From Eremomyces bilateralis CBS 781.70 (Eukaryota): 49,845 nt of DNA. The notes beneath the pieces were generated by a model. The model was not told where the DNA came from, did not search any database, and worked only from the letters and a program-made list of their open reading frames with translations. The position numbers were made by a program, and so were the translations under genes. Location of the stretch: assembly GCA_010015585.1 (NCBI GenBank), contig ML975166.1. One strand, given 5' to 3'. Positions 8,469 to 49,845 of this stretch are shown in pieces. How positions within the stretch are numbered: position 1 is the first letter of the stretch; the number at the start of each line of letters is the position of its first letter.

Positions 8469-9761
8469 AGTTATGTCGGAACGAACCATCGCCGTCGATA
8501 TTAATTACCCCTCATTTTTGGGGGTACATCAGACAACTCAAAGTTGATTGGAAAGGCCAAAGAGGCAACACATTCACCAACGTCACTTGCTCCACAACCC
8601 GCAACCGTGCGAGTGCAGTTCTGTTGCTTTGTACCGGCCAATGGCCCTTTTGGAAATGCTCTTGTGCATATTAAACACCTGAATAGCAAGCTCAGAGATG
8701 CTCTAATTGCTCTTGTCCGAAAATTCGAAAATCCAATTGCCATCAATAGATTTGAGCGGGGAGTCGACGGAATAGCCCCCGAGTCGCTCCGCATCTTGCA
8801 GCCATACTCTAAAACTATAACATCTGCAGTCAATCAATCCCTTGTCCCGTTGATCTGTTGTTGAACCAGTGAACCATTAACTTAATAATATTCTTCCCAG
8901 CCACCGGGAGTGGTGCTGGGTACAGGGGAAGGTAATAGGCTAGAGTCGGGCACCATCCCACGCTGCAGCGAAATCCGATGCACGTCATATCCACAGCCCA
9001 CCAAACATGTGTCAAGACCCAAGACGTTCAGACTCTTGATGCGAGAATGGGGGTGTCAGATGCACAAGAGGAAAAAAGCAAAGAAAGGAGTGCAATCTGT
9101 AAGAGCCTGCACAACGTATAACACAAGGACTGGAGAACCTACCGGAGCGTCCAATTGGCTTTTTCCTGTTTTCGGGAAGTCATGAAGTATTATCTGTCTT
9201 ATTCCTCCACTGCTGTGCCATAGTAATGGCGATTACGGATTAGAGAAATCGCGATTAGAGAGGACTCCGTAATTAGTTGAGGGCCACTTCCGGTAAGGTC
9301 CCCCTCTCACTAACTACTCCCTCACTAAAATATTCCAATATCCCCTTCGATTTCCACAAGTGCGAAAATCCACCGTCTTGTCCATGATTCCCATGCTAAC
9401 AGTAACCGCAACTGCAAGGTGTCCCCTTCGAAAGGCAATTGCCTAAGCACTGCACTGCTTCCAAATCGCCAATGGCTGTAGCGTCGTCCAGAATTTCCCA
9501 TCCCTCATCACCTGTCGCGTCCAATTCCTGGACGGTACCGGTCCCGGACACAACCAGACGCCATTGCCAGTGCGTGGCTATTCGCTGAGCCAGAAGCTAG
9601 AGTTCGAGACCGGCAAGCCATACAAACACTCCCCCGTTGCTGCATGTGCCCATCGATACAAAGAAAGATTAGGAATCCCATCTGCCACGCTATCGTGGGC
9701 AACGAAGGACAGGAGGATTGATAAACTCGCGTTCCGATCTCGCAACAGCTTCATCCTCAAC

Positions 9762-12700
9762 ATGGCACAATCACCAGGAGATACTGTCGATTCGGAAGGC
9801 CTCCGTGCCCGTCTGACCAACAATCCGGCCAAACCTCAGCTTGAAGCTTCTTCAAAATCCGCTAAGGATACGGTACAGAGCTTGAACCATGCCGAAGAAG
9901 AGAAGCCGGAGTCAGGACAACGGACATATGGGAGAACACCGAACGGAAAAGGCATGGGAACTGAGCACCGCATATATGCCTACGTATTAACCTCTCGCAG
10001 TATTCACCGTACCGCACACTCACGACATGGTCTCCCAACTCCTCTCTCCCACCCAACCGAAGAATCTTTCTGATGTCATCGTCCTCCTCATCCTAGCGAT
10101 CCACATCTCGGGCTTATACTTCCTTCCGCCAAGTCTCCAGGTCTTCGCATTCGGGACCCTTTTCGCATTCTGGAGACTCTCATACAATGCCGGTATCGGG
10201 TATTTACTGCACATTCAGTCCAACTACAAAGGTCTGGTGACATGGGCAAGACGGAGTGGCATCTTCGAGAACCCGTCCACGGGCAAAAACAAGCTCCCTT
10301 GGGCCTACGGCGTGTTGAAACGAGAATTCGAGACGAAGATCCCAAAGGATTACTCGTTCGAGGACGCTCCGATCGAGTACAACACGTGGCTGTTCTTCCG
10401 CAGGGTCGTCGATCTCATACTCATGTGTGACTTCGTGTCTTATTGTTTATTTGCGATGGCATGTGCCCACCTTCCAGACGAGTCCGTCCTCATGACCATC
10501 GGCCGCTGGACCGCGGGCGCCGCCCTGTTCCTCTTTAACCTTTGGGTCAAGCTGGATGCTCATCGTGTGGTCAAGGACTTTGCCTGGTACTGGGGGGACT
10601 TCTTCTTCCTGATCGACCAGGAGTTAACGTTCGATGGTGTCTTCGAAATCGCACCCCACCCAATGTACTCCATCGGCTACGCGGGATATTACGGCATCTC
10701 CCTGATGGCTGCGAGTTATAAAGTCCTTTTCATCTCCATCGCTGCTCATTCAGCACAGCTCGCATTCCTCGAATTCGTGGAAAATCCACATATTGAGAAG
10801 ACCTATAACCCGGTGGTTCCATCCATCGGCCGAGGTCTCGAAAAAGCGGCGGGCGGCGACGACATCGATAAATTGGACTCGGAGAGCGGAACCGGGACTG
10901 GCACGCCTGTACCGTCCGGCGGCTACCCTTCGTCGATTCACGGCTTGTTGGGCCTGAATAACGTGGATCTCCACCGAACAACGGATCTATCGGTTGGTTT
11001 GCTTCAGGTCTACCTGTTCCTATTTACCGTCCTCACGCCGTCGACACCCATATATCAAGCCGTGTTCGTCGTGAATGCGCTGATATGGCGGATTTGGTAC
11101 AGCTTCGGGATAGGGTACATCCTCAATCGCCAATCTCACAAAAAGAAGTGGACCCGGCATTTCATCAAATACGGGGACGGTATCGAGGAAGGCTGGCGAC
11201 AATGGAAGGGATTGTATCATATCAGCATGACCATGTTCTACGGCAGTTTCGTGGCGGCGGCATACAAGATGTACTCGCTTCCGCCGGATTGGACCTATGG
11301 ACTGGCTCTTCTTCGCCATGTCGTTGGTATTGCGCTCATCTCCCTCCAGTTCTGGACGGTCCACAGCATCTACGCATCCCTGGGCGAGTTTGGATGGTTC
11401 TTCGGGGACTTCTTTTTTGACCATGCGCCGAAGCTCACCTACAACGGCATATATCGCTATCTTAACAACCCCGAGCGAATCTTAGGGCTCGCCGGCATCT
11501 GGGGCCTTGCCCTCATCACCTGGAGTCGCGCGATTTTCCTTCTTGCGTTACTGTCGCACCTACTTGCAGTGGCATTCCTCGAGCTGGTCGAACGGCCTCA
11601 TATGCAAAAGCTGTACGGAGAAAGCATTCGAGAAGACTCCGGTATTTCTCGCAACATCAAGCGATCCTTGCCGAAGCAACTCCGCGACTGGCAGGGGAGC
11701 ATCGACCGTGCTTTGGGGGAGACATTCGAGATCGTCGAACACTTCCTCGAATCAACAAGTCCCCGCCTTGCGTCTGGCGTCGATGCTCTAGTCAAGGAAT
11801 CGACTACCAAATTAAAATCATATCCAGCAAAGATTCGCATTACCATGCAATCAATCGATCAATCACCTGACCAGCAGTACTATTCTTTATCCATTATAGA
11901 TACCCCTTCTAAATCGTCTGGCGAATTCGATCGTGGCAGTGGCCGCGAAGGTGAGCATGGGCGACGTCCGCAAGAGCATCGATCCAAATTCCGGCCGTTG
12001 ATATTTGAATACGGTGCCCCGATTAAAGTTCGATGGCAGGCGCCTAAATCACACCACAGAAAAGATTGGGTGGGACTCTACATGGTCAGCGACAACAGCT
12101 CCCGTGAGGTGACCCAAGTCAGCAGTCAGGGACGATGGGTGTCCGCGTGTCCTGGAGCATACGACGATAGTCGATCAGAGGATGGCATTCTAGTCAGCGA
12201 TGGTCCGATCGAGACCGAGGACATGATTGATCCCGACCTCATCTACGGCGAGATGGAATTCTCTGGCGACAAACTATGGTGGACGCCCGGCGTGTTCGAA
12301 TTTCGATTCCATCATGCTGGAAAGCACAATGTCATGGCCATCTCCTTTCCATTTGAAATCAAGGTCAGCAAGTTCGACGACGATAATGCCGAAGTCGATA
12401 GCAACGGCCAGATCCGCGGTTCCATTGAAGAAGCGTTGCTTTCCGTGGTACGGAATTGCTTCAACCGTGACCCTGATATTGCACCGAGAACGGTCGACGA
12501 AAGCTTTGGGAGTCTGATTGAGAGAGATGGCAAATATGCGAAACGAATCGTGTTCGCGGTGCAACGGATGTATGTCATTTCACAGAACTTGATCCGAATT
12601 CAGCCTTGGATTACTGACTTCATCACAGGTTCGGGATTGAATTTGCTCCCGAGGTGGTTAAAGCGGACGGTAATGTCAAGAACCTTGCGTGGAGGATATG

Positions 12701-20402: not shown

Positions 20403-22471
20403 TCAGCTCACCCGGTGATGATCTTCCTCATCAGACTGTGTATCATCGCGGTATGGTTGCAGTGTTTCTTCCATACGGTCGTTTTCTTCGTCTCCGGCCT
20501 TTTTTGGCTCCGCAGCACGCCATCCAGTTGCTGCCTGAGCCAATACCATCAAAGCCGTAAGGCCTGCGGCGGCGGCAAACAACCCCCGCGTCGCGTCCAC
20601 ATATGCGCCGATCGCAATCGATTTTTCTGGCTCTCCCAGTGTTCCAACAAGGGCTGGACTGCCCAGCAACTTTCTAACCAGTCCGGTTTTGTGTCCCAGC
20701 CCATGCCCCACGAATCCATTGGTGAGTGAGCGTTGAAGGGTTCGTGTAAAAACACCTCCTCCGATCGCCGATCCAAAGGAGCCAGCGAAGCCTCGGAAAG
20801 TGGCAAGTAACGAACTTGCGATGAAATGTGTGTGGGTTGGCGTCAGATGAAGAAGATGGGACAGCGTGTAGTTGAGTGAGGAGCCCGTGATCATGCCGTT
20901 CACAAAAGTCAAGGAAACAAAGAGCGCAGTTGATGATGTCGCCGTAGACGCGTAGGACATCGATAAGAGGCTAAGCGGGAATAGGATATTGGCTACGATG
21001 CTGGGACTAATCCAAATGATCAGTTGCATTCGATTCTGAGCATGTGCTGAACTCACATGTAGAAGCTGCCTGACCGCTTGATGTGCAGCCACCCGACTAA
21101 GATGCCACCCAGAGCGAATCCCGCATTTGTCGGAATCAATATCGATCCCGCTTTGGCGGAATGCCACTGTCGAACGGAGATGGCGTACACGGGGGTGTAA
21201 AACAGGATCGTCCATCGTGACATCATGAAACCAAGCGTGGCGATGCATGAGAAGAGCATGCCCCGAGACTTGAGAATCACCACTGGAATCACGGGATCTG
21301 AGGCCAGGTATGCTTCATTGAAAACGAAGATGGGCAGAATAATCAATGACAGAACGATTGGCAATATCTGGATGGTTGGTGAAGACAAGCCAAGAAGCAT
21401 GAGAAAAATGGTCGCAGTCTAGAATCGTTAGCATGCTGCCTCGGTTCAATAGAAGGAAGAACAGTACCAATGTGACGGCCCCTAAGTAGTCCAGACGCGC
21501 CAGCTTCTGTCGGAGAGAAACATCAGTCCGACTGTTATATTTCGAGGTTGAGAAATCCGGAAGTTTTATAAGTAGAACCAGCCCTGCTATGATAACAAAC
21601 GGGGATTGTCCCCAGAAAAGGGCTCTCTAGAATAGCGTCAACTCCTGAACTCTGTATCAGCTGCAGGATCCAACGTACCCAACCGATGACAGGTTCCAGT
21701 GCACCAGATAAGACAGCGCCGACGGAGACGCCGACAGTGTATCCCGTGTTTAACAGGCCGATAAATAACCCCCGCCGCTCGTCAGTAGCTAACTGTAGCA
21801 CGACGATCAAGGAGACTGTAAAGATGCCGGATGCTCCAACCCCCGTCACGACTCGCCCTACCAGGAAGAGGTCCAGATGTGGCGCGAGGCCGGTGATGAG
21901 GGATCCTATTGCGAAGATGACGGAGGCGGTGAACATGCACTGTTTTGGAGGAAATACGGTACAGAGCCGGCCTACTAATGGAGCAATGGATGACATTGCA
22001 ACCAAATATGCGCTCGTGAACCTGGTGATCGGTCAGTACTGGCTCAGGGGTATGCATTCGGGTTCGGAAGATACATTACCAGGTTACATTCTCAAAAGCA
22101 TCCAGTTCCGCAGCAATTGCGGATTGTGCGGTAGTCAAGAGCGAGATATTGGTAGCTTGAAGGAAAATAAGGATACTCATAGCGAAGACGATCAAGGTTC
22201 CCCGAAGCCGCATGCTCTGTCGCTTTGGCCACGGGGGAAATTCGGTGAGGTCGCCATCAACTATCGGGACCTGGTTGGCATCAGGTTGATCTGTTGCAGT
22301 TATTCCATTTCCGACACCGGGGAAGGTAGATTTCGACGACGCAAGCGATGCAGGCGAAGAAGGCGTATCTTGAAGAAGCGGAGTCTGCGCAGTGGTGATG
22401 GTGGTGGCGGTGGTGGTGGTGGAGGGGGTGGTGGAGGGAGACGACGGTGCGTCATCATCAGGACCAGCCAT
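20403..22471 (-). CDS. MFS transporter, DHA2/Vba-like family
   Basis: Five exons (introns 22079-22022, 21678-21627, 21467-21419, 21056-21007). FLQATNISLLTTAQSAIAAELDAF..VTWFTSAYL, PLVGRL, GRVVTGVGASG, RRGLFIGLLNTGYT.G...GA, RLDYLG, FRGFAGSFGSAIGG. Confidence 0.88.
22391..22440. repeat. Imperfect (GGT)n coding microsatellite in the MFS N-terminus (Thr/Pro/Ser tract)
   Basis: AGTGGTGATGGTGGTGGCGGTGGTGGTGGTGGAGGGGGTGGTGGAGGGAG; encodes PSTTPSTTTTATTITT on the minus strand. Confidence 0.7.
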
Positions 22472-23200
22472 GATGATGCTCTAATAGTTCTGGTTATCAA
22501 CCTGGTTTAATTCCCTCCTATGTTCGTAGGGATGGTTAAAGAGATGGATGCCATCAAGGTGAATCCGTTCTCGAGCTTAGTGGGGTTATTGGATTATTTC
22601 ATGTATTGGGAGGAATTCCAGCCCCGTGAAATTCTGGTTCTGTGGATGATGTAGTGGCTTCAACCTGATTGCTAAATATATCCAGTAAAGTTTGCAATAC
22701 ATAGGTCCTCAGTACCTATGCGTACTCAGTGCCGATTATGAATCCAAGCCAATACCTGTTATTAGGCAGTTTTCTGGTGGCATAAGGCATTAACAGATAA
22801 CGGGGATGACCGCAATCATGCATGCTGATATCATTGCTGGAGCACCCGGACATCGGATCGGATCTGAGTTATCAAAGCTGCAATACTGAATACGCCATAT
22901 GGATAGTCGGATACTCTCGCATTCAGCCGGGTCCCGCCCCAGCCAACGCTGGGGACCCACTAACCAGCAATATGCTATTGGAAATTGCTAATAATATCCC
23001 GTCTCGAACTCTCGGTCGTGTGTGTGGTTAGGTAGATGCTCGATAAGACGATGCAATATACGAGATCACGGTGTAGTGAGTGAGTGCACACATCTCAGCC
23101 AAACGACACTGTGAGAACCCAGGGCGGAGGCAAGACCTTGCTTCGACATGCTTGAATTTTTGAACCCAGGTGCTCCGGATATTTCTTTTAATGATATGGA

Positions 23201-37286: not shown

Positions 37287-39246
37287 ATGGCGAATCCCGA
37301 AAGCAAGCATTATATCATTCCACGACCAAGGAATTGGTACAACTTCATCGTTGCGCTCTTCGTAGCTTTCGGGAGTCTCAGCTATGGATACGCCAGTTCG
37401 ATCAGCGCCGCAACGATAGGTTAGTTGTAAATCAAAAGACACGGATTAGACAGGACTAAAAGGGACAAGGACAACCTTCGTGGTATGACTATATGGGGCT
37501 AGAGCAAGACAGCTCATATACCAACTCGGTAAGTACCTGACCGTGAAGAAGAATCATACTGAACAGTGATTCTCATCTAGATCATCGGCGTTATTAATTG
37601 CATATACGCCGTCGGAGGTATGAAGAAGCGATAGCTGTACCTGATGAGCCGTCCTAAAATCGCCTAGGTGTCTTGGGATGCATCTACAATATGTGGGCTG
37701 CAGAATATTTCGGACGCAAGATCTCGATCCAAATGGCCTGTGTCATGGCGATCTTCGGCGCTGCTTTGATGACGGGATCGCAAAACGTTCCCATGTTTGT
37801 CGTGAGCCGTGTCATCATGGGCTTTGCCATCGGAATCCTGGTTACGCTTGTTCCACTGTATCAGTCTGAAGTGTCTCCAGCCGAGTCCCGTGGCCTCATG
37901 GTTGGCCTTCATGGGGTGCTCATTGGATTCTCGTACGCCCTGACGGGGCTTGTAAGCTACGCTTGCAGCTTTGCCCCCTACGGAGAGTTTCAATGGCGAT
38001 TCCCACTAGCGGTTCAGATGATCTGGCCTCTGATCCTCTTCATCGGGATGTTCTTTCTGCCGTACTCTCCTCGTTGGCTACTCAGCCAAGGCCGCGAAGA
38101 GGAGGCCTGGACTATCACCAAACGACTGCATGCAAGCAGACACGATCCAGAGGATTCGTACGCGCTGGCAGAATTCCGGCAAATGCGTGAGCAAATCGCG
38201 TTCGAGAAGACACAAAGCGCTGCCGGGCCATGGGCTCAGGCCAAATATGCTTGGAGTCGACCAAGCTTCCGGAAGCGGCTTGGCCTTGGTATCCTGGTTC
38301 AGGCAGGTAACCAAGCCACTGGCGCCCTCGTGATCAACAATTATCAGACGGTGTTTTATAACCGCTTAGGGATTAGCGGAAGATTACCATTGCTTCTGGT
38401 GGGCTGCTTCAATTTGATTACGGTACCAGGAAATCTGATAAACGGACTGCTTGTTGATCATGTGGGACGAAGGAAGTTTGTCTGTAGGTGACCACTTACG
38501 GCTGACAAAGACATCCACCACATTAAGCAGACATAGCTAACTTTTGAAGTGACTGGGATTGTGGCACTCACCATTATCGTCTCTGTTGAAGCGGCCTTGA
38601 CGGCCCGGTTTGCAGACACCGGATCGGACAACAAAGTCGGGCTTGGATTTGGAGTAGCCTTCATTTTCATGTTCCCCGTATTCTAGTAAGTCTATGCCTG
38701 TCATTGTAGTAGAGGAGAATACTAACCCCTCATAAGCTCCGTCTGCCTCGATGCCACCATGGTACGTAAAACCTTCTGGATGTAACATTTCATGGACTGA
38801 GACCCTTGATAGTATTTGATTCCGGCGGAAATATTCCCCATGATTATTCGATCGTTCGGCATATCCTTTAGCATCATGGGCCAATGGATCGCGACTGCTG
38901 TACTCCTCGGAGCCGCACCCACGGCATTCGAGAACATTAAATTCGGATTTTGGATCGTTTTGATTGCTGGAAGTGTCGTGTATGGGGTTCTAGTGTACTT
39001 TTTCTTGCCCGAGGTAAGTCCATGCTCCCACTTCGGTTCTGAGAAGTCGCTTGATGGGATAAGTACTGAACCTTGGGACAGACGAAAGGAATGACATTGG
39101 AGGACATCAGTATTCTCTTCGGTGACCCTGTCGAAGTAACATTCGCGAAAGCAATGGAGAAGTCAGAGAACACAACAGAAGGATATTCGCATGCCGAGGA
39201 AGGAGATTCCAAGGACAAACATCAAGCTTTAGGGGAAATATTCTAG
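37287..39246 (+). CDS. Sugar porter family MFS transporter, 8 exons
   Basis: Introns 37420-37469, 37529-37580, 37618-37667, 38484-38549, 38686-38736, 38762-38812, 39014-39081 keep the frame. Motifs FGSLSYGY, FGRK, PLYQSEVSPAESRG, WRFPLAVQ, PYSPRWL, QATG..VINNY, DHVGRR, PAEIFP..IRS, LPETKGMTLEDI..LFGD. Confidence 0.92.
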
Positions 39247-42200
39247 GCACCGGGCTAAGAACATCCATATCCAAGAAAGACACCGGAGGATTAATAGAAA
39301 GGATAAACGTGTCGTGATTGAATAACAGATCAGGAGCAGCAGGAAAACCACAACCCGGACGTCTAAATTCATGTTTCGATTATCAAGCAACTTCAAACGT
39401 CACTTCTCTTCATTAATAGATAACCTCATCCATGGCAATGGCTCAAGTTGCAAGATGTCAAAGACCTGAAATACAAAGAGGTTGAAGAGCTGAAGAGTTG
39501 TTTTGAAGAGTTGAAGCATGAAAGAGTTGGAGAGTGGAGGAACTGAGGGGTGGATGTGGATCAGGGGGCAGGAATCATAGCTTTCGCAAGGAATGTGAGC
39601 ACATGATTAAATGCAGGGTTCTGGTAATGGCTCTAGCTGCCACGTGAAAAAACCCTGTCCAGCCCTGCCACGTACCTATTTCAGTGCCACACCACACAGC
39701 CACACCCGTTCTGTCGGCGCCGGGCTGCGGGTCCGCCAGGCTAAGATTTTCACACACTTTGTTCGTTGATGCTTTGGCAGCTGGTGGTTACCTATCGCGA
39801 TACACCTAGTATTCAGGACTGCGCGGGTGTCTCTGACAGATACCCATTCCTGCGATTGGAAGCCAGAAGCAGTTTTCACAGGTGGCTCGACAGGAGACTG
39901 GCCCTGCTGAACCTCTTCGGCCGGAGCCTGGTCGTCCACTCCCAATTGGATATTTCAACGACCACCACCAGGCACCAGCAGAACTACCCCATTCCCTTTT
40001 TTCCTCTTCCTTTCGGTCGTTGCGGTTCTTCCCTTGCGCTTGTTGAGCAATGCAGATCAGCCGGTTAAGACGAAAATGAGGTTTCGGCAGCAAAGCACTG
40101 GCATCGAACAGCACAGCAGTCAATGAGTTGCAACAAAAAGAAAAATCCTTGGGCAGTGCCACATACGTTTGTCGACTACATCACAATCGCGAAACGAAAT
40201 CTTTGTTGTCGGTCACCACTCATGACTCAGGAGCCAGAGCGTGGAAATGATCATATCATCATGGGATCAACGCCTCCACGGAGCTTCCTGCGGACTCTTC
40301 CCTTTCCAGCCTAGCCAGGGGCAGGAGTGGCAAATTCGACGTCACCCGGCCGTTGAACCGGAGTTTAGTCCTGAGTACGGGTATTCCGCACTGAAACAGA
40401 GTTTCATGAGAACATGACTTACATAGTACTCCAGGTCTCCATCGTGTCCTTGATTTACTCCAGTGGTTCTCAAGGCTTAGTTCGTTGCGTTCTTTTGGAA
40501 AGTAGCTTCAACATCGGATGGAGGAGATGAGGAATAAGAAGAGGAAGGAATTAAAACTGACGTACCGATGTAGAATTGGGTTTTTCGAACCTTGTATTCT
40601 CAATATTGAGGTCGATTGTAGCCGGTTGAACAGCAATCGTTTGGCTGCAAAGCATATTGAAAGACTCTTACTACGGACAGGCCAATCCGTTTAAATTGTG
40701 ATCGAGGGATCGTTTATTCACCTCTTAGAAATCTCTTCCTTATTTCAGTGTGCGATGCTGCGGTTTCGTTCTTCGCCGTGGACTAGGGATCGACGACAGT
40801 GTTCATAATCGCGGTGCGACTATTTCCTAGATCTGCCTGTCCTAAGTCCTGACCCTTGATACCTGGGAGCAAGATTGGTAATTGCCGATAGATAAATGGT
40901 ATGCGATGCGCAAATGAGGGGAGCGGGAGAAGGTCCACGGAAGTCGGAATCTATCAAAGCGCCACCTGCATGACCACCCTAGATAGAAAAGGGGATAGAG
41001 TATAGGGTAAGTGGGTATCACAGGATTCCGTAATACTCCGTTATTGAGTCTTTCAGTAATAACTACTTACCGTGTGGCGTGTGCGGTGAAAAACATATTG
41101 GATGTTTCGGCCCGGGTCATCATGAAATTTCGCGATGAGATTGCTGTGTCCGTGTCTCCCTGATAGGCTGTCCCCCTGTGACCCCGTCGAGCTGTTCGAG
41201 GCTCTGCGGCCTATATTCTAGCCGGTGTTCGTACTTTCCAGGTTTCAACCATCGCCGATTCCCGTGTTACGGGTTGACATTGCGCGAAATTCAACAGACA
41301 GATTGACGTTGTGCCCCTAATTTCCCTTTCTCATGTACATGTAGCTGTTTTCTCCCCTGAGCTTACACGGTACGGTTGAACTGCCGACTGAAACCGATCA
41401 TCAGGAGGACAAATTACTGAACCAGTCCCTCGACAGCAAGAGAAGAAGTTTGAGATTTTCATGGCTATCCGCTACACAGACACGGCAACCAGGCGTGTGA
41501 TCAGCAATGGTGAGACAAGGGATCGCCGAAACATGGCGTCATGTCAGGTCCCGATAGCTGGTGTTGTTTGTTGGTGCATCTACTATAAGGATTTATTCTG
41601 AGAATCTCAATTCTTAATAGAAATACCACTAACTAGACCAAAAGAGATCATACTTGGGTGTAATCGGCATTCTTTTGGTTCTCTGACAAATGACAAATCT
41701 TAAGTCTCAATCCCCCTTAACTCATTCGACTACCCGCCCTTCTGGAGCCGCGTTTGACCATGACCATATTTGGCCATGGTATCCTCCGTAATTAGGTATC
41801 TCCTTGGTTATAGCAACTGGCCAAACGCGGCGTTGATACTTCTATTAGACTTGGACAGGAGGAATAATGCAAACTCTTTCATGTCGGATCAGTGATTTTC
41901 CTTTGGAGTTTGGACTGATGGAATGATGGCTGAAATTGCTGCTCAGCTTCAATTCCCCTTGATTCCCGTCGCCGTCAAAACCTCCAGTATCGGCCAATCC
42001 GGAGCGCCACATCGGCGGAACGGCGCTCGGTTAAGGAAATTCGGGCACCAGGGTAGGAGGCGTTCGGCTACGTACCCTGGGTGGTCGTTTACAGTGTAAG
42101 GCACGCTAGCAAAACGCGATATTACACTTTTCTTCGCACAATTCAGTCAGGTGGACAGGCCGGGGATGAATCATGAAAGAAGCCATTTGCGAATCCCCAT

Positions 42201-43798
42201 CGCGTATTCCGGACACCCGTACACATCTACAAGCCGGATGAACACGGGTAGGGATGTTTTTTTCTTATTCTTGAACTATTTTGTACTACGTAAAGCTGAC
42301 AGACCCTCTCCTACCAGCCAAGGCAGCACGATTTCCCCTGAAGCAGGGATGTAACACAGCCTCCCCTGCTGCACACCTGATGAATACCTTGATTTGTTTC
42401 CCGCTTCCGGTCTATTCTTCATAGTATCCTTCTTGACTGTTGACGATGGAGAATGTCAAATGTAACACGGGTGTCAACGCTTCTATTGACGTCGGGTATC
42501 GTACTCAAACGAACAAGAAATTTCATCGGTGCTATGCTTCTTGTCTACTCTTTCTGTGCCCATCCCAGTTGGAATCGGATCGACCGGAGTGACGATGGCT
42601 ATGAAGCGATCGACCATCGATGATGAAATCGATGCGCACAACCCAGTCAGTCTCGGAGAGGTTCACCGCCATCTTGACGGAAGCTGCCCGTCCTGGAGAA
42701 CGGATAATTTCTTGCAACAGGGAGTATTACTGTTCTGTATTCCGTACTATGTACACTTGGACATGCCGGCCACACTGCCTTTCTGTTCCGCCAGTGTTCC
42801 GTACAGTCCTCTATATCACGATTAACCACTGTTCGACGGGGCGCAACTATGATCCCCAGTTTGTGTGCAAGGTTGATATCGACAGATATTACTATGTATT
42901 TTCATGCATTGGTGATATTGGTGGCATGGGCGCCCACAAGCCGAGCCAAGAGCAACATATTACCCCAAACCCCTCCAAATGCCAGCCCCGCATAAAGGGG
43001 GTTTCGCTGGAACCCACGCTGACCAACTAACGACGGTGGCTTACGGCACGCATCAGCTTCGAATCTTCCATGCATTTTGCATGGCGCTTCCCTCCCATGC
43101 AGTTCCCAAGGAAATTGCTAGCAGGGGGATCCGGTGCTCAAGTGCCCATGAAAAACGACGGCTGAATCCACTCATCCACGAGGTGGTGAAATGACACTAA
43201 GACCTCCTTCTAAGGACTAAGAGTGACACTGCCTGCCAAGTGTCAAAGTACACAATTCGACTGCGTGGGAAGTGGAGCCTTTGGTAAACATGTTGCATGC
43301 AAATCTGCAACATCCGTCGCGGTGTGGCCTGTTCATCCTCCTGAGTCCTGAATCATCACCGAAAGTCCCGATCCCGACTCTGGTCATTACCGGTATTTTG
43401 CTTGGATCTTGGGGCCTTGGATAGGTAGGTTTAATGTCGTTGGATCGACCTGATCCTGTCGCTCCTTGTCACTCATTGTCGTAAACTCGTAATGGAGCCT
43501 TGTCACGGCCATAAATAATCCCATCACCCTCCCGTTCTTTCATCCATGTTCAACCTCACTTCGTTTCATTTACATCGCCAAGTCTAGTCGTCGGTCTCCG
43601 GCTATAGCTTTAATTGCCCTACAGTTATTTAATAGCGCTCTGCATTATTGCATATATATACTGCCACTCCTCAATCTTATCTCCTGGTCATCAGGTGTCA
43701 CCATTAAACCACAGTCCGATCCGAGTCTTCGCCTTTTCCTCACCACCATCCCCCACCTCCCATAGAGTAGAATATTTCTACTCCCACGACTCATCACA

Positions 43799-43876
43799 AT
43801 GCCTTCTGTCTCACATCTCCCTCCATCCCCGGGTCCGCCACCTAATCGACCCCTTCCTCCGGTCCCAGCCAAATAG
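43799..43876 (+). CDS. Candidate 25-aa proline-rich micropeptide MPSVSHLPPSPGPPPNRPLPPVPAK
   Basis: ATG in CACA-ATG context (A at -3). Preceded by TATA-like elements and a pyrimidine-rich leader; followed by 3'-UTR-like sequence. Encodes the RxxPxxP motif RPLPPVP. Confidence 0.5.
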   Translation: MPSVSHLPPSPGPPPNRPLPPVPAK

Positions 43877-46800
43877 ACCGAGAGGATTCAGGCAGACACT
43901 CCATGTCTCTTCCCTGAAGTCGAGACATTCAGATACCCACATGGCCCGACAGCACTCCATACATCTCTGACATCACGACCTTCTCGGGTATTGCGAATCC
44001 CCTTGAGTTCGCCGTGAGGTTAGAATCTTGGCTGTCGCAACCTATGGGACCTGGATCGTATCGGCCCCTCCTTCACACATCCGTCACGACGATCCATCCC
44101 ACGTCTTCTCCATCTTCGTTTTCGCACCGAATCTTTGATTTATCGACGATGAAGCCACGAAGCAGCGCGATTAGATCGACGAATCCTGTTGGGTTGGGTG
44201 ATAGGTCGCAATTCTACGGACGGCAGCCTGTTGTCGATTTGGTTGGGCCAGTGAAAGGTCCTCGTGCTCTACGATTCCACCTATCAACATTTCCCTCGCC
44301 CTGTTCATCTACGGCGGTTCACGTACTGGAGCCTTAATCGGTTCCTGCCATCAACATGCTCACCTACATATCCTACCTACCTCATTCATTTCGAGGCATC
44401 GGCATTCACGGCTGAAAAGTGTATGCCGCTTGTTGCTTATTTATCTTGCCTTGGTTTTTTTGCAGTGGACAAGGAGCGGAGTGGATCGGTTCTGATTGTA
44501 GCATGGGGAATAGATCAGGCTTTTTTCCTTTGGATTTTTGATACCACTACCCATGGAAAGGGTTGATTTCGGTTGGATGGGATCTGGTTTCGCTGGTACG
44601 AAACAAATGGAAATATACTGGTAATTATGGGTTTTTTTGGTGGAAGGGCTTTTGTCGTTCAGAAGGGAACTTTGCTCTCCTTGACATCCTGTCTAGGGAG
44701 ACGTTGAAGTGAATGTAATACTCTTATAACTCTCATGGTCTCGTATTCACTGTTTGATGACTGGCCCAACATGCTCGATCCTCTGTAAGCAGTTGCATTA
44801 CGTATGTAACCAAATAGTCTACCTGATCAGTGAAGGCGATCCACCTTATCGCATTATATTTGACAAACGCCAATTTTCCATAGTACGGTTGGCTCCCTGG
44901 CAGTATCACTGCACGTATGCTTCCGGTATGCTTTCGGTACTTGCAAGTTCGATAGCAATATACCCACATCTCGACTCTCAACCAGCTTCAACGAACCATG
45001 TTTCCTAGCGAATCGGGCCATACTGTCATATGGATATCACAGCAGTAGTGAGTAATCAGAACCGAACAGCACCCATGGAGCACCCATGGAACACCCATGG
45101 AGGCGTTAGCTCAGGCGAAGGAAGCCGAGCTCACAGGCTACTGTTACAGGGTACGATCAACGCCTCCATCATGCCGCTATTTATTCCGAGGCAGTATTTG
45201 GTGTCCAACTATCCACGGCAGCTGGCCCGAGGACGACCATGTTAACTAAGTAGTTAGCTATCCGCGACATCCGCCGGGCGGTGGTGATGCTCAGAATGGA
45301 AGCACACAATTTCCTCACCATCGTCTCGGATCAACCCGAGACGTTTCGCACAGTTACTCAATAGTCCTGTGTAAATAATATAAGATATTTGTATCGGAGA
45401 AATGCAAACATCCTATACCCTGACACCTCGCACCGACCGCCATGACGCCCTCGCGGAGACGAATGGCCTTGGAATCCTAGGAGATATGGATTGATGTCGA
45501 ATTCATGATGTTTGATAGGATCGAACATCAACAATCACTCGAGAGGATTGTTCACGATAATGGAGATTGCTGGTTTCAATTAGAACTTAGAAGCGACGCC
45601 TAATCCGAACGGATATGCTGCTCGGTCGCTCCGTTGCCAGGACTAGACTTGTGACAGCCAACAGAAGCCCGCAGTTCCGCACCCTTCCCTCTCCATTGGA
45701 TCGTAACTCCTAAGGCGATCACTTACCTGACAGATGTAGCAACTAGCAAGTGTATGCAGTATGCACCATGCAGGTGTCGGAAATCGGAATCAGTTGACCG
45801 GTAGCCGCTCGACCGCTCGGGCGCTCACACTCCTGGTAAGGGTCATCCCACGTCGCTTGGATGATTGAGAGTTGTCCTCTGTACCCCCACACGAAGCCGA
45901 GGTTGATTTGAGTGCCACGGACAAGGTCATGCCTTCGCCTTCTTGCCGTTTTCTCTCAAGCGTTATTCAAGAAAAAGGCTATTAGCTGCCCAATCCAGGA
46001 CGAGAATATGCCATACCGAAGTGCGGGCTCCGTGTCACTTAACGAACATTCTTCATGTAACCAAGGAAAATGATGGACTTGGTGTACGGATCGCTCTTCT
46101 CCTTTTACTCGATATCTGCCATTGATATGAGAGCACATGATTGCAATATGCATTTCCCCTTTCAATGGCCGACCACTGGCTTGGGAATATAAATGGCAAA
46201 GCTCGCCTAGAAACCTATATGGTAGCAGACCAACTGCAGGGCACCAAACAGAGCCTCTGGAATCTGGATAAACTGAATTCCCTAGTCCTTGCAAGAGCCT
46301 GGGTGTCTGCCATGCTCTTACTGTCCAGAAATCTCCCGAAGACACCACAAAAGCCGCCGCACACTTGTCTTAATTCTGTGAAGGCAACGAGTGTGGTTTG
46401 CCGGAGATAGCTTCCAAATGGTTGGTCGACGCAAGGCACCGGGTAATATACGCGATGAAGAAGAGGATTATTTGCATCTGATCCCCGACACTACACAGCA
46501 TTTAGGATGGATTCATGTTCGAGATGAATTTCTAACAGTCAGGTTTCAGGTGATGCCATGATGAAGAGGAAATGGGTCTGAGGCATCCGATATGGACATA
46601 TGGATTATGGACTCTGTCAGTATGCCAGTATGCCACTATGGACTATGGTAGTAGCAGCTGAGTCAGCTACGGACGCCACACATGGTGTTTATACTTCAGG
46701 CTTCCAGGCTACAACAAACGTGTGTGGCTGTGCTGAGACTCCTGAGAGGGCCCAGCTTCCGCATGGACCAGCCGCCACATGCCGCTTCCTGGCTCCATCT

Positions 46801-47050
46801 CTTTCTGATCGGTTTCTCACCTCTCCTTTCTCACCTGCAATTCTCCTTTCTCATCTCTATCGACACTCCGACCTTCTAACCATTGGTCCGGAACCGAACA
46901 CAATCACTCAATCTCATGTAGCTCTTCATGAAACCCCAGCTTCTCACAGTCTAATTTTCCTAACCGTACTGAATCCCTACCCCGCTGCTAAAACCAACCT
47001 CCACCGCCTACGTATTGACATTTCCCTCCCTGGGGATATCAACCGTTCCG

Positions 47051-48642
47051 ATGCCCAAACTAAGCACCATCATCTATTACCTTTTCCATATCCCGGAATT
47101 GAGAGCAATAATTCAATGGTACGTTGACTGGAAAGAATCGCGCCGAAAGCCTCGTCTCTAACCTAGTTCCACTCGCAGGAAAATATGGCACGATGCACCT
47201 CATGAGCGCGATCCTGACAAGGAATCGGAATCACTTCGCCAATGCTTCTACTACCTCGACAAGACGAGCCGCAGTTTCGCAGCTGTCATCAAAGAGCTCA
47301 ATCCCGAGCTGCTCTCCCCGATTTGTCTCTTCTACTTGATCTTGCGTGGGCTGGACACGATTGAGGATGATATGACCATTGCGCTCTCGGAGAAAGAGCC
47401 CTTGTTACGCGACTTCGATAGCATTCTAGAGAAGGATGGTTGGTCGTATGACGGAAACCATGCGAAGGAGAAGGATAGAGAACTACTGGTTAACTTCCAC
47501 GTGGTCATCACTGAGTTCAAGAACATCAAACCCACATACCGATCCATCATCAAGGACATCACCAAAAAGATGGGCAATGGTATGGCCGACTATGCCAACA
47601 ACGCCGAACACAACATCAATGGGGTGAATACGGTCAAAGAATACGAGCTCTACTGCCATTACGTCGCCGGCTTGGTTGGTGAAGGGCTGACGAGGCTCTT
47701 CGTGGAAAGCAAACTCGCCAATCCCGCCCTGTTAGAGCGAGCACCATTGCAAGAGTCGATGGGCCAGTTTCTGCAGCAGACCAACATTATCCGAGACATC
47801 CGGGAGGACTGGGATGATAAACGCCGCTTTTGGCCGAAGGAGATCTGGTCCAAGCACGTTGCCAACTTCGAGGACCTTTTCAAACCCGAGCATCAGGTGG
47901 CGGCTTTGAATTGTAGCTCGGAGATGATTCTCCTTGCACTGGAGCGGGCGGACGAATGCCTTTTGTACCTTGCCGGTCTTCGTGAACAGAGCGTGTTTAA
48001 CTTCGCTGCCATCCCCCAGGCAATGGCCATTGCCACGCTGGAACTTTGCTTCCGGAACCCCGACATGTTCAAGCGTAACATCAAGATCACCAAGGGACAG
48101 GCATGCCAATTGATGATGGAATCGACCCAGAACCTCCAAATCCTCTATGGGGCATTTCGGGCGCATGTCAGGAAAATTCACACGAGGAATGATCCGAAAG
48201 ATCCCAACTTCTTGAAGATCAGTGTTGCTTGCGGCAAGGTACGTCAGAATGCCGCGATAATTGACTGGAAGGCTAACCATCGTTCAGATTGAGCAATTCA
48301 TCGAGAACGTTTTCCCGTCACAAGTCCCCCAAGCCAAGGTTGGCGCTCTGGGAGGCAAGACGATTACTGCCGAGGACGCAGCCAAGGCGAAAGCCGATGC
48401 GGCCGAGGCGAGATGGGACAGCATCTACATGCTCAGCGCTGTCTGCCTGACGTTATTCCTGGTGACGGTTTTCATGGTAGGTGTCCGGATGAGGATTCTC
48501 ATGATTTTGGAGCTAACCTGTCTACTAGGTTGGTACTGCATGGCTTTCGGGAGCGCGTTTCGACATTGTCTTCAACGATCTTTGGAACGGAAAGTTTTTC
48601 CCAAAATCCTCGACTACCGTTTCGGCAAAACAGGAGTTATAG
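47051..48642 (+). CDS. ERG9: Squalene synthase (farnesyl-diphosphate farnesyltransferase), 476 aa
   Basis: Exons 47051-47118, 47179-48238, 48288-48476, 48529-48642. [84 protein letters not shown]-terminal TM helix; ends KQEL*. Confidence 0.97.
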
Positions 48643-49090
48643 ATTCTATTCAACTGAACGAAGTATATGTCTATGCGAATTCCGTTGAGGTGCTGAACTA
48701 GCGTGGCACACATGCATTGAGTTGATGACGTATTTTCAGCGAGCCAATCCCCCCTGGGGTATAGAACAAGCACGGATGTCAAATTGCAATCCAGCCCATC
48801 AATGGCTGTGGTTGTGCCGTAGAAGTGCTGAGATGGAATTGCAATTACCTGGAGACGGGGCGGCTTGTCAATTCTTCCTCACCGGTGGAAGGGTTGGTGA
48901 AGCGGCATTGCATACATATCATACCGATGGATCGGTTCAGGTCGTAGACGTGATGTTGCATGGTCGAAGTATACTTTGCTTCCGGTTGTGGTGGTACAGC
49001 TGATGAGTTGATGCTCTATCGGTTGCAATGAAATACGATTTTGATTGACATAGTTTTTAGACAACCAACTGTATTAGATATCAACCAGTC

Positions 49091-49845
49091 TAGGGCTGGA
49101 CACGAATAAGGATTTTGGCTATTCGTATTCGACTTTTCCCTGGGAACGATTATTCGTATTCGACTAAATTTCGAGACGTTTTATTCGTATTATTCGCGAA
49201 TATTCGTAAATAATGCCAAGACTTATTCGGCAAAAGCCGAGCCAATGAATGAATGCCCAGCAGTCGCGACTTTTGTTTACCCAACATGCTCCAACTAGAG
49301 GATTTGAGCTCTAAGAGATACAAAGCATATCAATATGTTGCAACTTCTTTCTTAATATGGATGACTTATCCATGTCTCTTGGGAAGCGCCGTCTTCGCTC
49401 CGAGAGAGTTGATTATCATCTTCTTAATGATGGCAGTGACGAGGAAGCCTCCCTAGAGAATAGCACCAGCAAAAGGCGTTGTTCAAGTGGAGCCCGCAAT
49501 AGTCTCGAATTGATCTCTCCTGACGATTCAGCAAGCCAAGTAACCCCAGCTCAAGGCTCTCTATCGACCGTCTCTCCAGAGCAGGAGTTAAATGGAGACG
49601 AATTGCCGCCGTCCTCTACCGTCTCATATGAATCCGGACATCGGCGAATACGAGCACAGAATCAATCTCTATGGGAGCAATTCAAGGTTACCGTACTTCG
49701 AGACAAGCTATGGTGGCCAAAGAGGGGGACTGGGCCAGTACAAGATCGAGAGATTCGATGTATTCGGTGCGAGTGGAAGACAACGGATTCCGCGAGAGCT
49801 ACCTCGACGTCGAACATGACCCTCCACCTCTCTAAGCATAGGAAG
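49091..49845 (+). mobile_element. Left end of a hAT-superfamily DNA transposon (continues beyond the window)
   Basis: Starts TAGGGCTGGACACGAATA. Subterminal direct repeats TATTCGTATTCGACT at 49120 and 49151, with further TATTCG copies to ~49229. Followed by a BED zinc-finger ORF. Confidence 0.75.
49357..49845 (+). CDS. N-terminus of a putative hAT transposase with BED zinc finger (3'-truncated by the window)
   Basis: 163 codons with no stop: MDDLSMSLGKRRLRSERVDYHLLNDGSDEE..ISPDDSASQV..SLWEQF..IRCIRCEWKTTDSARATSTSNMTLHLSKHRK, matching the BED pattern W-x2-F...C-x2-C...TSN-x3-HL-x2-H. Confidence 0.78.
   Translation, partial: MDDLSMSLGKRRLRSERVDYHLLNDGSDEEASLENSTSKRRCSSGARNSLELISPDDSASQVTPAQGSLSTVSPEQELNGDELPPSSTVSYESGHRRIRAQNQSLWEQFKVTVLRDKLWWPKRGTGPVQDREIRCIRCEWKTTDSARATSTSNMTLHLSKHRK

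What the first reader, a model, noticed from the sequence alone, without database searches (positions are those of the whole stretch)
43500..44740. Apparent stand-alone transcript encoding a 25-aa SH3-ligand micropeptide inside the gene-free region
Seen in sequence: TATA-like ATAAATA (43511) and TATATATA (43653); a C/T-rich leader; ATG at 43799 in CACAATG context; ORF MPSVSHLPPSPGPPPNRPLPPVPAK* (43799-43876). About 850 nt then read like a fungal 3' UTR (CGACGA runs, T/G-rich tracts, TTTTTGATACC at 44535-44545, an AT-rich end near 44710-44735). Established: RPLPPVP fits the class I SH3-binding consensus RxxPxxP, and PPSP is a proline-directed kinase site. Inference: this is a gene below annotation cut-offs whose product is little more than one SH3 ligand, possibly a phospho-regulated decoy or competitor for SH3 scaffolds such as Sho1-, Bem1- or actin-patch-type proteins. 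The ~4 kb of gene-free DNA upstream could be its regulatory region. This is the best candidate here for an undescribed system.
Basis: partly seen in the sequence, partly recalled or inferred. Interest (0 to 1): 0.72.

Follow-up and report, generated by a model that had tools for sequence, protein, structure and literature searches.

The report
Abundant orphan transcript with proline-rich mini-ORF
A fungal stretch that looks gene-free makes a very abundant, unspliced RNA of about 1.2 kb whose only non-random reading frame encodes a 25-residue proline-rich peptide carrying a near-ideal SH3-binding motif, but nothing yet shows that the peptide is made or binds anything.

Summary
The ORF 43799-43876 reads MPSVSHLPPSPGPPPNRPLPPVPAK* and every landmark sits where stated. 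RNA contigs of one run (X1) cover about 43.47-44.70 kb at word depth 9,100-11,000. ERG9 next door has 1,100-1,300 and the upstream transporter 91. There is no splice joint, and one contig is colinear over 43727-44431. So this is a stand-alone, unspliced, abundant transcript, not an exon of a longer CDS.

The ORF is not explained by C-richness alone. Eleven in-frame Pro codons were reached in 50 of 20,000 dinucleotide shuffles. The strict motif [RK]PLPP[LIVM]P arose in 18 of 100,000.

Against a coding reading: codon usage is not gene-like, two upstream AUGs probably lie in the leader, and no homologue was found in any search. Translation, strand, conservation in close relatives and SH3 binding could not be tested here.

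My verdict: most likely a lineage-restricted small-ORF gene (about 0.45). The main rival is an abundant lncRNA with an incidental ORF (about 0.3).

The parts
43465..44700 (+). Abundant unspliced transcript of about 1.2 kb. Ends are approximate and the strand is inferred.
   Evidence: X1 word depth: 1,847 in bin 43135-43529, then 10,973 / 9,110 / 10,230 in 43530-44714, then 136. My arithmetic on these bins puts the 5' end near 43,465. The contig 43727-44431 has 0 mismatches and no joint. An adapter junction lies at 44677. The + strand is inferred from adapter orientation, calibrated on the + strand GT..AG transcript at 41176, and from an ERG9-leader-like C skew.
43799..43876 (+). 25-codon ORF MPSVSHLPPSPGPPPNRPLPPVPAK*, with its AUG in CACAATG.
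   Evidence: In-frame CCN enrichment: 50 of 20,000 shuffles reach 11 Pro. Codon-usage LLR is -4.1, against +6.0 (sd 4.8) for coding 25-codon pieces.
43847..43867 (+). Codons for RPLPPVP, a class I PxxP core.
   Evidence: The strict pattern [RK]PLPP[LIVM]P arose in 18 of 100,000 dinucleotide shuffles and 95 of 100,000 residue shuffles. It occurs once in 99,686 six-frame residues of the window and 0 times in 1,624,234 residues of 80 fungal loci. The pattern was defined after seeing the sequence.
43492..43518 (+). Upstream mini-ORF MEPCHGHK* (G at -3, G at +4), inside the RNA if the 5' end is near 43,465.
   Evidence: Its inclusion in the transcript is inferred from the binned depth.
43546..43587 (+). 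Upstream mini-ORF MFNLTSFHLHRQV* in weak context.
43653..43660 (+). It probably lies inside the transcribed region but could serve a downstream alternative start.
   Evidence: The low-depth X2 contig starts at 43691, a weak hint of a start about 30 nt downstream.
43877..44700 (+). About 820 nt after the stop codon with no gene-like ORF. It would act as a long 3' UTR.
   Evidence: The longest ATG-ORF, 44044-44337 (97 aa), has LLR -15.8 against +24 (sd 13.5) for coding pieces. Pfam found nothing on 10 six-frame ORFs. There is no homologue, no Rfam match and no enriched k-mer.

Best explanation
This is a lineage-restricted small-ORF gene. RNA polymerase II makes an abundant, unspliced transcript of about 1.2 kb with an mRNA-like pyrimidine-rich leader. 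Ribosomes reach the strong-context AUG at 43799, either after one or two mini-uORFs or from a downstream start site. They make a 25-residue peptide (24 after Met removal) that is 44% proline and carries a near-optimal class I PxxP core, RPLPPVP. At high copy number such a peptide would occupy SH3-type proline-recognition domains and compete with their normal partners. About 820 nt then follow as a long 3' UTR, the same layout as fungal a-type pheromone precursor genes.

Shown: the transcript, the absence of splicing, its relative abundance in one run, the ORF, and the non-random Pro frame and motif.

Inferred: strand, exact ends, translation, peptide stability, any binding and any effect.
For: -: X1 is RNA, shown by GT..AG joints in ERG9 at 47117/47178, 48236/48286 and 48475/48528. 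Depth is 9,100-11,000 over 43530-44714, against 1,100-1,300 for ERG9. The contig 43727-44431 is colinear and there is no joint.
- 11 in-frame Pro were reached in 50 of 20,000 shuffles. CC by phase is 11/3/4.
- this ORF is 1 of only 2 Pro-rich sORFs among 508.
- the strict motif arose in 18 of 100,000 shuffles and occurs 0 times in 1.62 million six-frame residues of other fungal loci.
- A at -3, and no longer ORF on either strand.
- a passage of PMC3068285 says long 3' UTRs are the rule for tiny a-type pheromone precursor genes (mfa-1, mf2-1, MF1-1, ppg2).
- passages of PMC4904012 give the Pbs2 motif as VNKPLPPLPVAG.
Against: - Codon-usage LLR is -4.1, where 89% of true 25-codon coding pieces score above 0. 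The Pro-rich composition drives much of this.
- Two upstream AUGs probably lie in the leader.
- A stop followed by about 820 nt would normally invite nonsense-mediated decay. This rests on general knowledge, not on a test here.
- No homologue was found in any search, so no conservation supports the frame.
- The strict motif was defined after seeing the sequence.
- Depth comes from contigs of a single run that was found with this very stretch, and its growth condition is unknown.
- The strand is not proven.
Confidence: 0.45

Rival explanations
1. It is an abundant long non-coding RNA. The Pro-rich ORF is a by-product of the C-rich leader. Any function lies in the RNA itself or in the act of transcription upstream of ERG9.
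For: - No ORF has gene-like codon usage: 25 aa -4.1, 97 aa -15.8, 139-aa frame -11.7.
- The longest ATG-ORF is 97 aa.
- There is no Pfam match and no protein homologue.
- The ORF lies in the most C-skewed 200 nt of the region.
- A 25-codon open frame arose in 16,320 of 20,000 shuffles.
- Upstream AUGs are present.
Against: - The in-frame Pro excess (50 of 20,000) and the strict SH3 core (18 of 100,000) are not explained by composition.
- The predicted fold is not more stable than shuffles (z -1.34).
- No repeated motif is enriched and there is no Rfam match.
- Read-through towards ERG9 falls to depth 4-10 by 45.5-46.7 kb while ERG9 stays high, so transcriptional interference is not evident in this sample.
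Confidence: 0.3
2. It is an expressed relic. The ORF is what remains of the Pro-rich N-terminus of a former protein gene, for example the ERG9-upstream family seen in other fungi, whose C-terminal domain has decayed.
For: - In 12 of 80 ERG9-anchored metagenome loci, a 180-260 aa ORF with a P/S/T-rich N-terminus lies on the ERG9 strand. In the 9 of these with a full 10-kb upstream flank the matched ORF sits about 2.4-3.1 kb upstream of ERG9; L055 and L064 are cut by their contig ends.
- The window ORF lies 3.4 kb upstream of ERG9 exon 2.
- tblastn aligns LLPSPLPASASPSHLP... with the window's ...MPSVSHLPPSP... at 52% over 31 residues, E 0.004 with composition correction switched off.
- A former coding origin would explain the 3-periodic CCN pattern.
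Against: - The family profile finds nothing significant in the window. The best hits in the transcript have E 0.9 and 4.4.
- hhalign of the family against frame 43918-44334 gives probability 0.25%.
- The similarity is confined to low-complexity sequence.
- In 9 of the 12 loci (L055, L064 and L047 were not examined in that output) a long minus-strand ORF lies between that gene and ERG9, and the window has none.
- The window's transporter neighbour is absent from all 80 loci.
Confidence: 0.12
3. The abundant RNA is transcribed from the minus strand, so the + strand ORF is irrelevant.
For: Contigs carry no strand information. The minus strand also has only short ORFs, 49 aa at most, so neither strand is favoured by coding capacity.
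Against: - Adapter orientation at 44677 matches that at 41176, where a + strand GT..AG intron fixes the strand. This fits a stranded library and + strand RNA, but rests on only two junctions.
- The C-rich 5' part mirrors the ERG9 leader on its sense strand.
- The AT-rich, T/G-rich right end looks like a fungal 3' end.
Confidence: 0.1

Closest known systems
a-type (lipopeptide) pheromone precursor genes of filamentous ascomycetes: mfa-1, ppg2, mf2-1, MF1-1, hpp1
   Same: They are stand-alone transcripts with a tiny first ORF in a good Kozak context and an unusually long 3' UTR (passage in PMC3068285). That these genes have high transcript abundance is recalled, not read here.
   Different: No ORF on either strand ends in CaaX and the peptide has no Cys. 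The peptide is Pro-rich, not hydrophobic. Mating-type dependence is unknown.
Proline-rich Sho1-SH3 docking motif of yeast Pbs2 (VNKPLPPLPVAG) and the Src class I optimum RPLPPLP
   Same: The core N-[KR]-P-L-P-P-[LV]-P is shared. The window has NRPLPPVP. The Pbs2 motif was read in PMC4904012. RPLPPLP appears in the search listing, and its status as the Src optimum is recalled.
   Different: In Pbs2 the motif is a docking site inside a large kinase. Here it is about a third of the whole product. No binding was tested. The exact string RPLPPVP occurs in 0 searched papers.
Small-ORF-bearing lncRNAs and lncRNA-encoded micropeptides
   Same: It is a polyadenylated-looking RNA of more than 200 nt without a long ORF. 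It is lineage-restricted and carries a short ORF near the 5' end.
   Different: Its depth is well above that of a housekeeping neighbour. The ORF's amino-acid pattern is non-random.
Unnamed ERG9-upstream protein family in fungal metagenome contigs (alignment A1)
   Same: It lies on the same strand as ERG9 and at a similar distance. Its N-terminus is P/S-rich and begins M-[APS]-S and, in the L042-L047 group and L068, contains SHLP.
   Different: The window has no detectable conserved C-terminal domain, and the flanking genes differ.

Membership tests
Class I SH3 ligand (short linear motif) | [RK]xxPxxP core | tested here: met
   RPLPPVP occupies residues 17-23. The minimal consensus is weak evidence: it arose in 1,804 of 20,000 shuffles.
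Class I SH3 ligand (short linear motif) | Close match to an experimentally used high-affinity core ([RK]PLPP[LIVM]P) | tested here: met
   It arose in 18 of 100,000 dinucleotide shuffles and occurs 0 times in 1.62 million residues of other loci. The Pbs2 motif was read in PMC4904012. The pattern was chosen after seeing the sequence.
Class I SH3 ligand (short linear motif) | Physical binding to an SH3 domain of the same organism | not testable with these tools
   No genome or SH3 domain of this organism is held, and the peptide is below the 30-residue limit of the complex predictor.
a-type lipopeptide pheromone precursor | Tiny ORF with a long 3' UTR on its own transcript | tested here: met
   A 78-nt ORF is followed by about 820 nt, unspliced. 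The comparison passage was read.
a-type lipopeptide pheromone precursor | C-terminal CaaX prenylation box | tested here: not met
   None of the ATG-ORFs on either strand of 43400-44800 ends in C-a-a-X. The 25-aa peptide has no Cys.
Long non-coding RNA | More than 200 nt with no ORF above 100 codons | tested here: met
   The RNA is about 1.2 kb and its longest ATG-ORF is 97 aa.
Long non-coding RNA | No coding signal and no translation | tested here: inconclusive
   Codon usage is not gene-like, but the in-frame Pro periodicity is non-random. No ribosome data are available.
uORF-regulated mRNA | A downstream main ORF with a coding signature | tested here: not met
   The 97-aa ORF has LLR -15.8, no Pfam match and no homologue.
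ERG9-upstream P-rich family (A1) | Conserved C-terminal domain (FFTL..HHP..Y.F..D..APTW..RIEG) | tested here: not met
   hmmsearch of the window's six frames gave no significant hit. hhalign gave probability 0.25%.
Any Rfam RNA family, tRNA or telomerase RNA | Covariance-model match or template repeat | tested here: not met
   Rfam gave one chance-level hit, E 0.81. There are 0 tRNAs and no CCCTAA or TTAGGG.

The most novel reading that the evidence does not exclude
The transcript is the message for a free-standing, high-copy short linear motif. This would be a 24-25 residue cytosolic peptide that is essentially one Pbs2-like class I SH3 ligand. It would titrate Sho1-, Bem1- or actin-patch-type SH3 domains, so that signalling or endocytic scaffolds are tuned by the transcription of a decoy rather than by modification of the partners. 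I found no such fungal micropeptide in print. None of the 12 papers listed contains the word micropeptide, and the peptide strings were found in 0 papers.
Probability: 0.2. Interest if true: 0.8.

Novelty: new member of a known kind. Interest (0 to 1): 0.5.

Why it matters
If the peptide is made and binds SH3 domains, it would be a gene whose whole product is one docking motif. That would be a simple, transcriptionally set competitor for signalling scaffolds, and a class of gene that annotation cut-offs miss.

Even if it is non-coding, one of the most abundant RNAs of this neighbourhood comes from DNA that looks gene-free. It would be missed by ORF-length-based gene calling: it has no long or gene-like ORF and no protein from it turned up in the databases searched.

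The case also shows that sequence reading alone predicted the extent of a transcript correctly.

Tried and rejected
- Relatives in whole genomes: none are held for this window.
- RNA runs: no listed holder is on record as RNA. X1 was shown to be RNA only by its splice joints.
- X2, another organism whose ERG9 is about 80% alike: it gave only a 269-nt, 100% identical contig at depth 3 over 43691-43959. I read this as carry-over from an X1-like library, not as conservation. No homologue at 80% likeness or more was laid.
- Protein searches:
  - The 139-aa frame gave none.
  - The 72-aa read-through with X at the stop gave none among proteins of near or longer length.
  - phmmer of the 36-aa stop-to-stop frame against 1.84 billion proteins gave 0 hits.
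  - The PDB sequence search gave 0 hits.
- Metagenome scan with the read-through: 598 pattern matches, none confirmed.
- ERG9-anchored loci: 80 loci at 66-77% identity. blastn of the transcript gave nothing below E 0.9.
- Rejected identities: Rfam family, tRNA, telomerase template, tandem repeat, internal repeats and enriched k-mers.
- RNA structure: z -1.34.
- A possible 71-nt intron, 43862-43932, would join the ORF in frame to the 139-aa frame. I rejected it because the donor GTCCCA is poor, that frame scores as non-coding, and no joint is seen.
- Earlier findings of this scan: nothing.
- The organism's name was not determined. The Atlas call only confirmed squalene synthase.
Full report
**1. 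What is in the sequence**

The ORF 43799-43876 translates to MPSVSHLPPSPGPPPNRPLPPVPAK*.

The window is fungal and ordinary in content:
- a sugar transporter ends near 39.2 kb;
- squalene synthase (ERG9, PF00494) starts near 47.1 kb;
- the rest are housekeeping genes, with no SH3 protein and no secondary-metabolite cluster.

On the + strand, 43500-44000 is strongly C-rich (GC skew down to -0.51). This resembles the ERG9 leader (-0.57). The stretch 44400-44700 is T/G-rich.

**2. A transcript is really there**

No whole genome is held for this window. One public run, X1, holds 96% of the sampled words of 43450-44800.

I laid X1 on 38000-49845. It proved to be RNA: its contigs skip three GT..AG introns of ERG9 (47117/47178, 48236/48286, 48475/48528) and carry adapter junctions.

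Word depth by bin:

| Region | Word depth |
|---|---|
| transporter, 38000-40369 | 91 |
| 40765-43134 | 16-37 |
| bin 43135-43529 | 1,847 |
| three bins 43530-44714 | 10,973 / 9,110 / 10,230 |
| 44715-45109 | 136 |
| 45505-46689 | 4-10 |
| ERG9 | 1,100-1,300 |

A 705-nt contig (43727-44431) is colinear with the genome, with 0 mismatches. No joint is reported anywhere in 43.4-44.8 kb. The RNA is therefore a separate, unspliced unit of about 1.2 kb.

Caveats:
- These are contigs, so each depth is one figure per contig.
- The run was found with this very stretch.
- Its growth condition is unknown.
- Contigs cannot show strand or exact ends.

*The 5' end.* I combined the bin means with the depth of the 43727-44431 contig. 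This implies a neighbouring contig of depth about 11,000 that reaches left to about 43,465. That is an inference. If it is right, both TATA-like boxes lie inside the RNA, and two mini-ORFs (43492, 8 codons, strong context; 43546, 13 codons, weak context) precede the 43799 AUG. A downstream alternative start near 43,690 cannot be excluded. It would lie 30 nt after TATATATA, where the low-depth X2 contig begins.

*The strand.* An adapter junction at 44677 has the same orientation as the one at 41176, where a GT..AG intron fixes the + strand. This fits a stranded library and + strand RNA, but there are only two junctions.

**3. What the RNA could encode**

Neither strand has an ATG-ORF longer than 97 codons.

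I trained a codon-usage log-odds score on 6,733 codons of the window's long ORFs. It separates in-frame from off-frame pieces well: 97% of in-frame and 0% of off-frame 97-codon pieces score above 0.

| Frame | LLR | True coding pieces of equal length |
|---|---|---|
| 97-aa ORF 44044-44337 | -15.8 | +24 (sd 13.5) |
| 139-aa stop-to-stop frame | -11.7 | not scored at this length |
| 25-aa ORF | -4.1 | +6.0 (sd 4.8) |

Other negative results:
- Pfam finds nothing in 10 six-frame ORFs of the transcript.
- Rfam gives no match: one chance hit at E 0.81.
- There is no tRNA and no telomerase template.
- There are no tandem or internal repeats and no enriched k-mer.
- The fold is not unusually stable, z -1.34.

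**4. Is the 25-codon ORF more than chance?**

Its being open is not: 16,320 of 20,000 dinucleotide shuffles stay open. The minimal SH3 consensus is not either: it arose in 1,804 of 20,000 shuffles, and 22 of 508 window sORFs carry a class I or II consensus.

Two features are more than chance.

First, the prolines are in frame. CC dinucleotides fall 11/3/4 by codon phase, and 11 Pro or more arose in only 50 of 20,000 shuffles. Of 508 ATG-ORFs of 15-60 codons in the window, only this one and a poly-Pro run exceed 30% Pro. Only three places in 50 kb have 10 or more CCN codons in 25. No microsatellite underlies the ORF.

Second, the core is close to ligands used experimentally. It reads NRPLPPVP. 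Yeast Pbs2 docks on the Sho1 SH3 domain through VNKPLPPLPVAG (passages of PMC4904012). The strict pattern [RK]PLPP[LIVM]P gave these counts:
- 18 of 100,000 dinucleotide shuffles;
- 95 of 100,000 residue shuffles;
- once in the window's 99,686 six-frame residues (this site);
- never in 1,624,234 six-frame residues of 80 other fungal loci.

I defined that pattern after seeing the sequence, so these figures overstate the surprise. Allowing for ten to twenty alternative proline-motif classes and the handful of sORFs in C-rich leaders, chance still looks unlikely.

**5. Relatives**

Nothing was found:
- the 139-aa frame;
- the ORF read through its stop with X, against proteins of near and longer length;
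- the 36-aa stop-to-stop frame against 1.84 billion proteins;
- PDB sequences;
- a metagenome scan: 598 pattern matches, none confirmed.

Using ERG9 exon 2 as an anchor gave 80 fungal metagenome loci at 66-77% identity. The transcript has no DNA match in them, and the transporter neighbour is absent from all 80. These fungi are too distant to test a fast-evolving locus. Conservation of the frame in close relatives therefore remains open.

One lead arose. In 12 of the 80 loci, a 180-260 aa ORF with a P/S/T-rich N-terminus and a conserved C-domain lies on the ERG9 strand. In the 9 of these with a full upstream flank it lies about 2.4-3.1 kb upstream of ERG9. It has no Pfam or NCBIfam family. Its N-terminus aligns weakly with the window peptide (52% over 31 residues, low complexity). 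Its domain is not detectable in the window, and in 9 of the 12 loci (L055, L064 and L047 were not examined in that output) a long minus-strand ORF separates it from ERG9, which the window lacks. I keep "expressed relic of such a gene" as a minor rival.

**6. Comparison with known systems**

The anatomy is that of fungal a-type pheromone precursor genes: a tiny first ORF, a good Kozak context, a long 3' UTR and its own transcript. A passage of PMC3068285 states that long 3' UTRs are usual for mfa-1, mf2-1, MF1-1 and ppg2. The defining CaaX box is absent from every ORF, so this is not a member of that family.

The motif resembles the Pbs2 and Src class I ligands, but binding is untested.

I found no fungal micropeptide acting as an SH3 ligand. 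None of the 12 papers listed holds the word micropeptide, and the peptide strings were found in 0 papers. Supplements were not read.

**7. Verdict**

The promoter assignment and the "gene-free regulatory region" are not: a spliced transcript lies at 41176-42892.

My estimates:

| Reading | Probability |
|---|---|
| lineage-restricted small-ORF gene whose Pro-rich peptide is made and acts as a PxxP ligand | about 0.45 |
| abundant lncRNA with an incidental ORF | about 0.3 |
| expressed relic of a former protein gene | about 0.12 |
| minus-strand RNA | about 0.1 |

Translation, strand, conservation and binding are all inferred. The tests that would settle them are listed under next steps.

Noticed in passing
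window 41176-42892 (+): A second unannotated-looking transcript lies in the 'gene-free' region. An RNA contig of depth 37 has a 222-nt GT..AG intron (joint 42095/42318) and an adapter junction at 41176. The ORFs 42490-42822 and 42605-43027 have no Pfam match.
   Followed up: partly
window 38000-40911 (+): The RNA contig of the sugar-transporter gene runs on about 1.6 kb past the apparent end of the transporter ORFs. It carries a 60-nt GT..AG joint at 40374/40435. This is either a long spliced 3' UTR or an overlapping downstream transcript.
   Followed up: no
window 47117-48528 (+): Three ERG9 introns are confirmed by RNA joints: 47117/47178 (60 nt), 48236/48286 (49 nt) and 48475/48528 (52 nt).
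   Followed up: yes
L042-L047, L055-L058, L064, L068; for example L043:6862-7479: An unnamed conserved fungal protein family lies on the ERG9 strand upstream of ERG9, about 2.4-3.1 kb away where the flank is complete. It has a P/S/T-rich N-terminus and a C-domain with invariant F.TL, HHP, Y.F, AAL, ER, D.D.TG, WAVT, APTW, R-I-E-G and L..V..VV. It has no Pfam or NCBIfam match.
   Followed up: partly
window 43691-43959, run X2: A 269-nt contig lies at depth 3 in a run of another organism, whose ERG9 is only about 80% alike. The contig is 100% identical to the window. It is most simply carry-over of a very abundant RNA between libraries. If it is not, this piece would be extraordinarily conserved.
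   Followed up: no
window 22300-22482 (-): This is the only other strongly Pro-rich frame in the window. A run of about 13 consecutive Pro codons lies inside a 52-codon ATG-ORF.
   Followed up: no
window 44423-44566 (+): A 47-codon ORF in the T/G-rich 3' part encodes two hydrophobic stretches. Its codon score is +1.0, between the coding and non-coding ranges. It is the ninth AUG counting from 43492 and is probably an effect of composition.
   Followed up: partly
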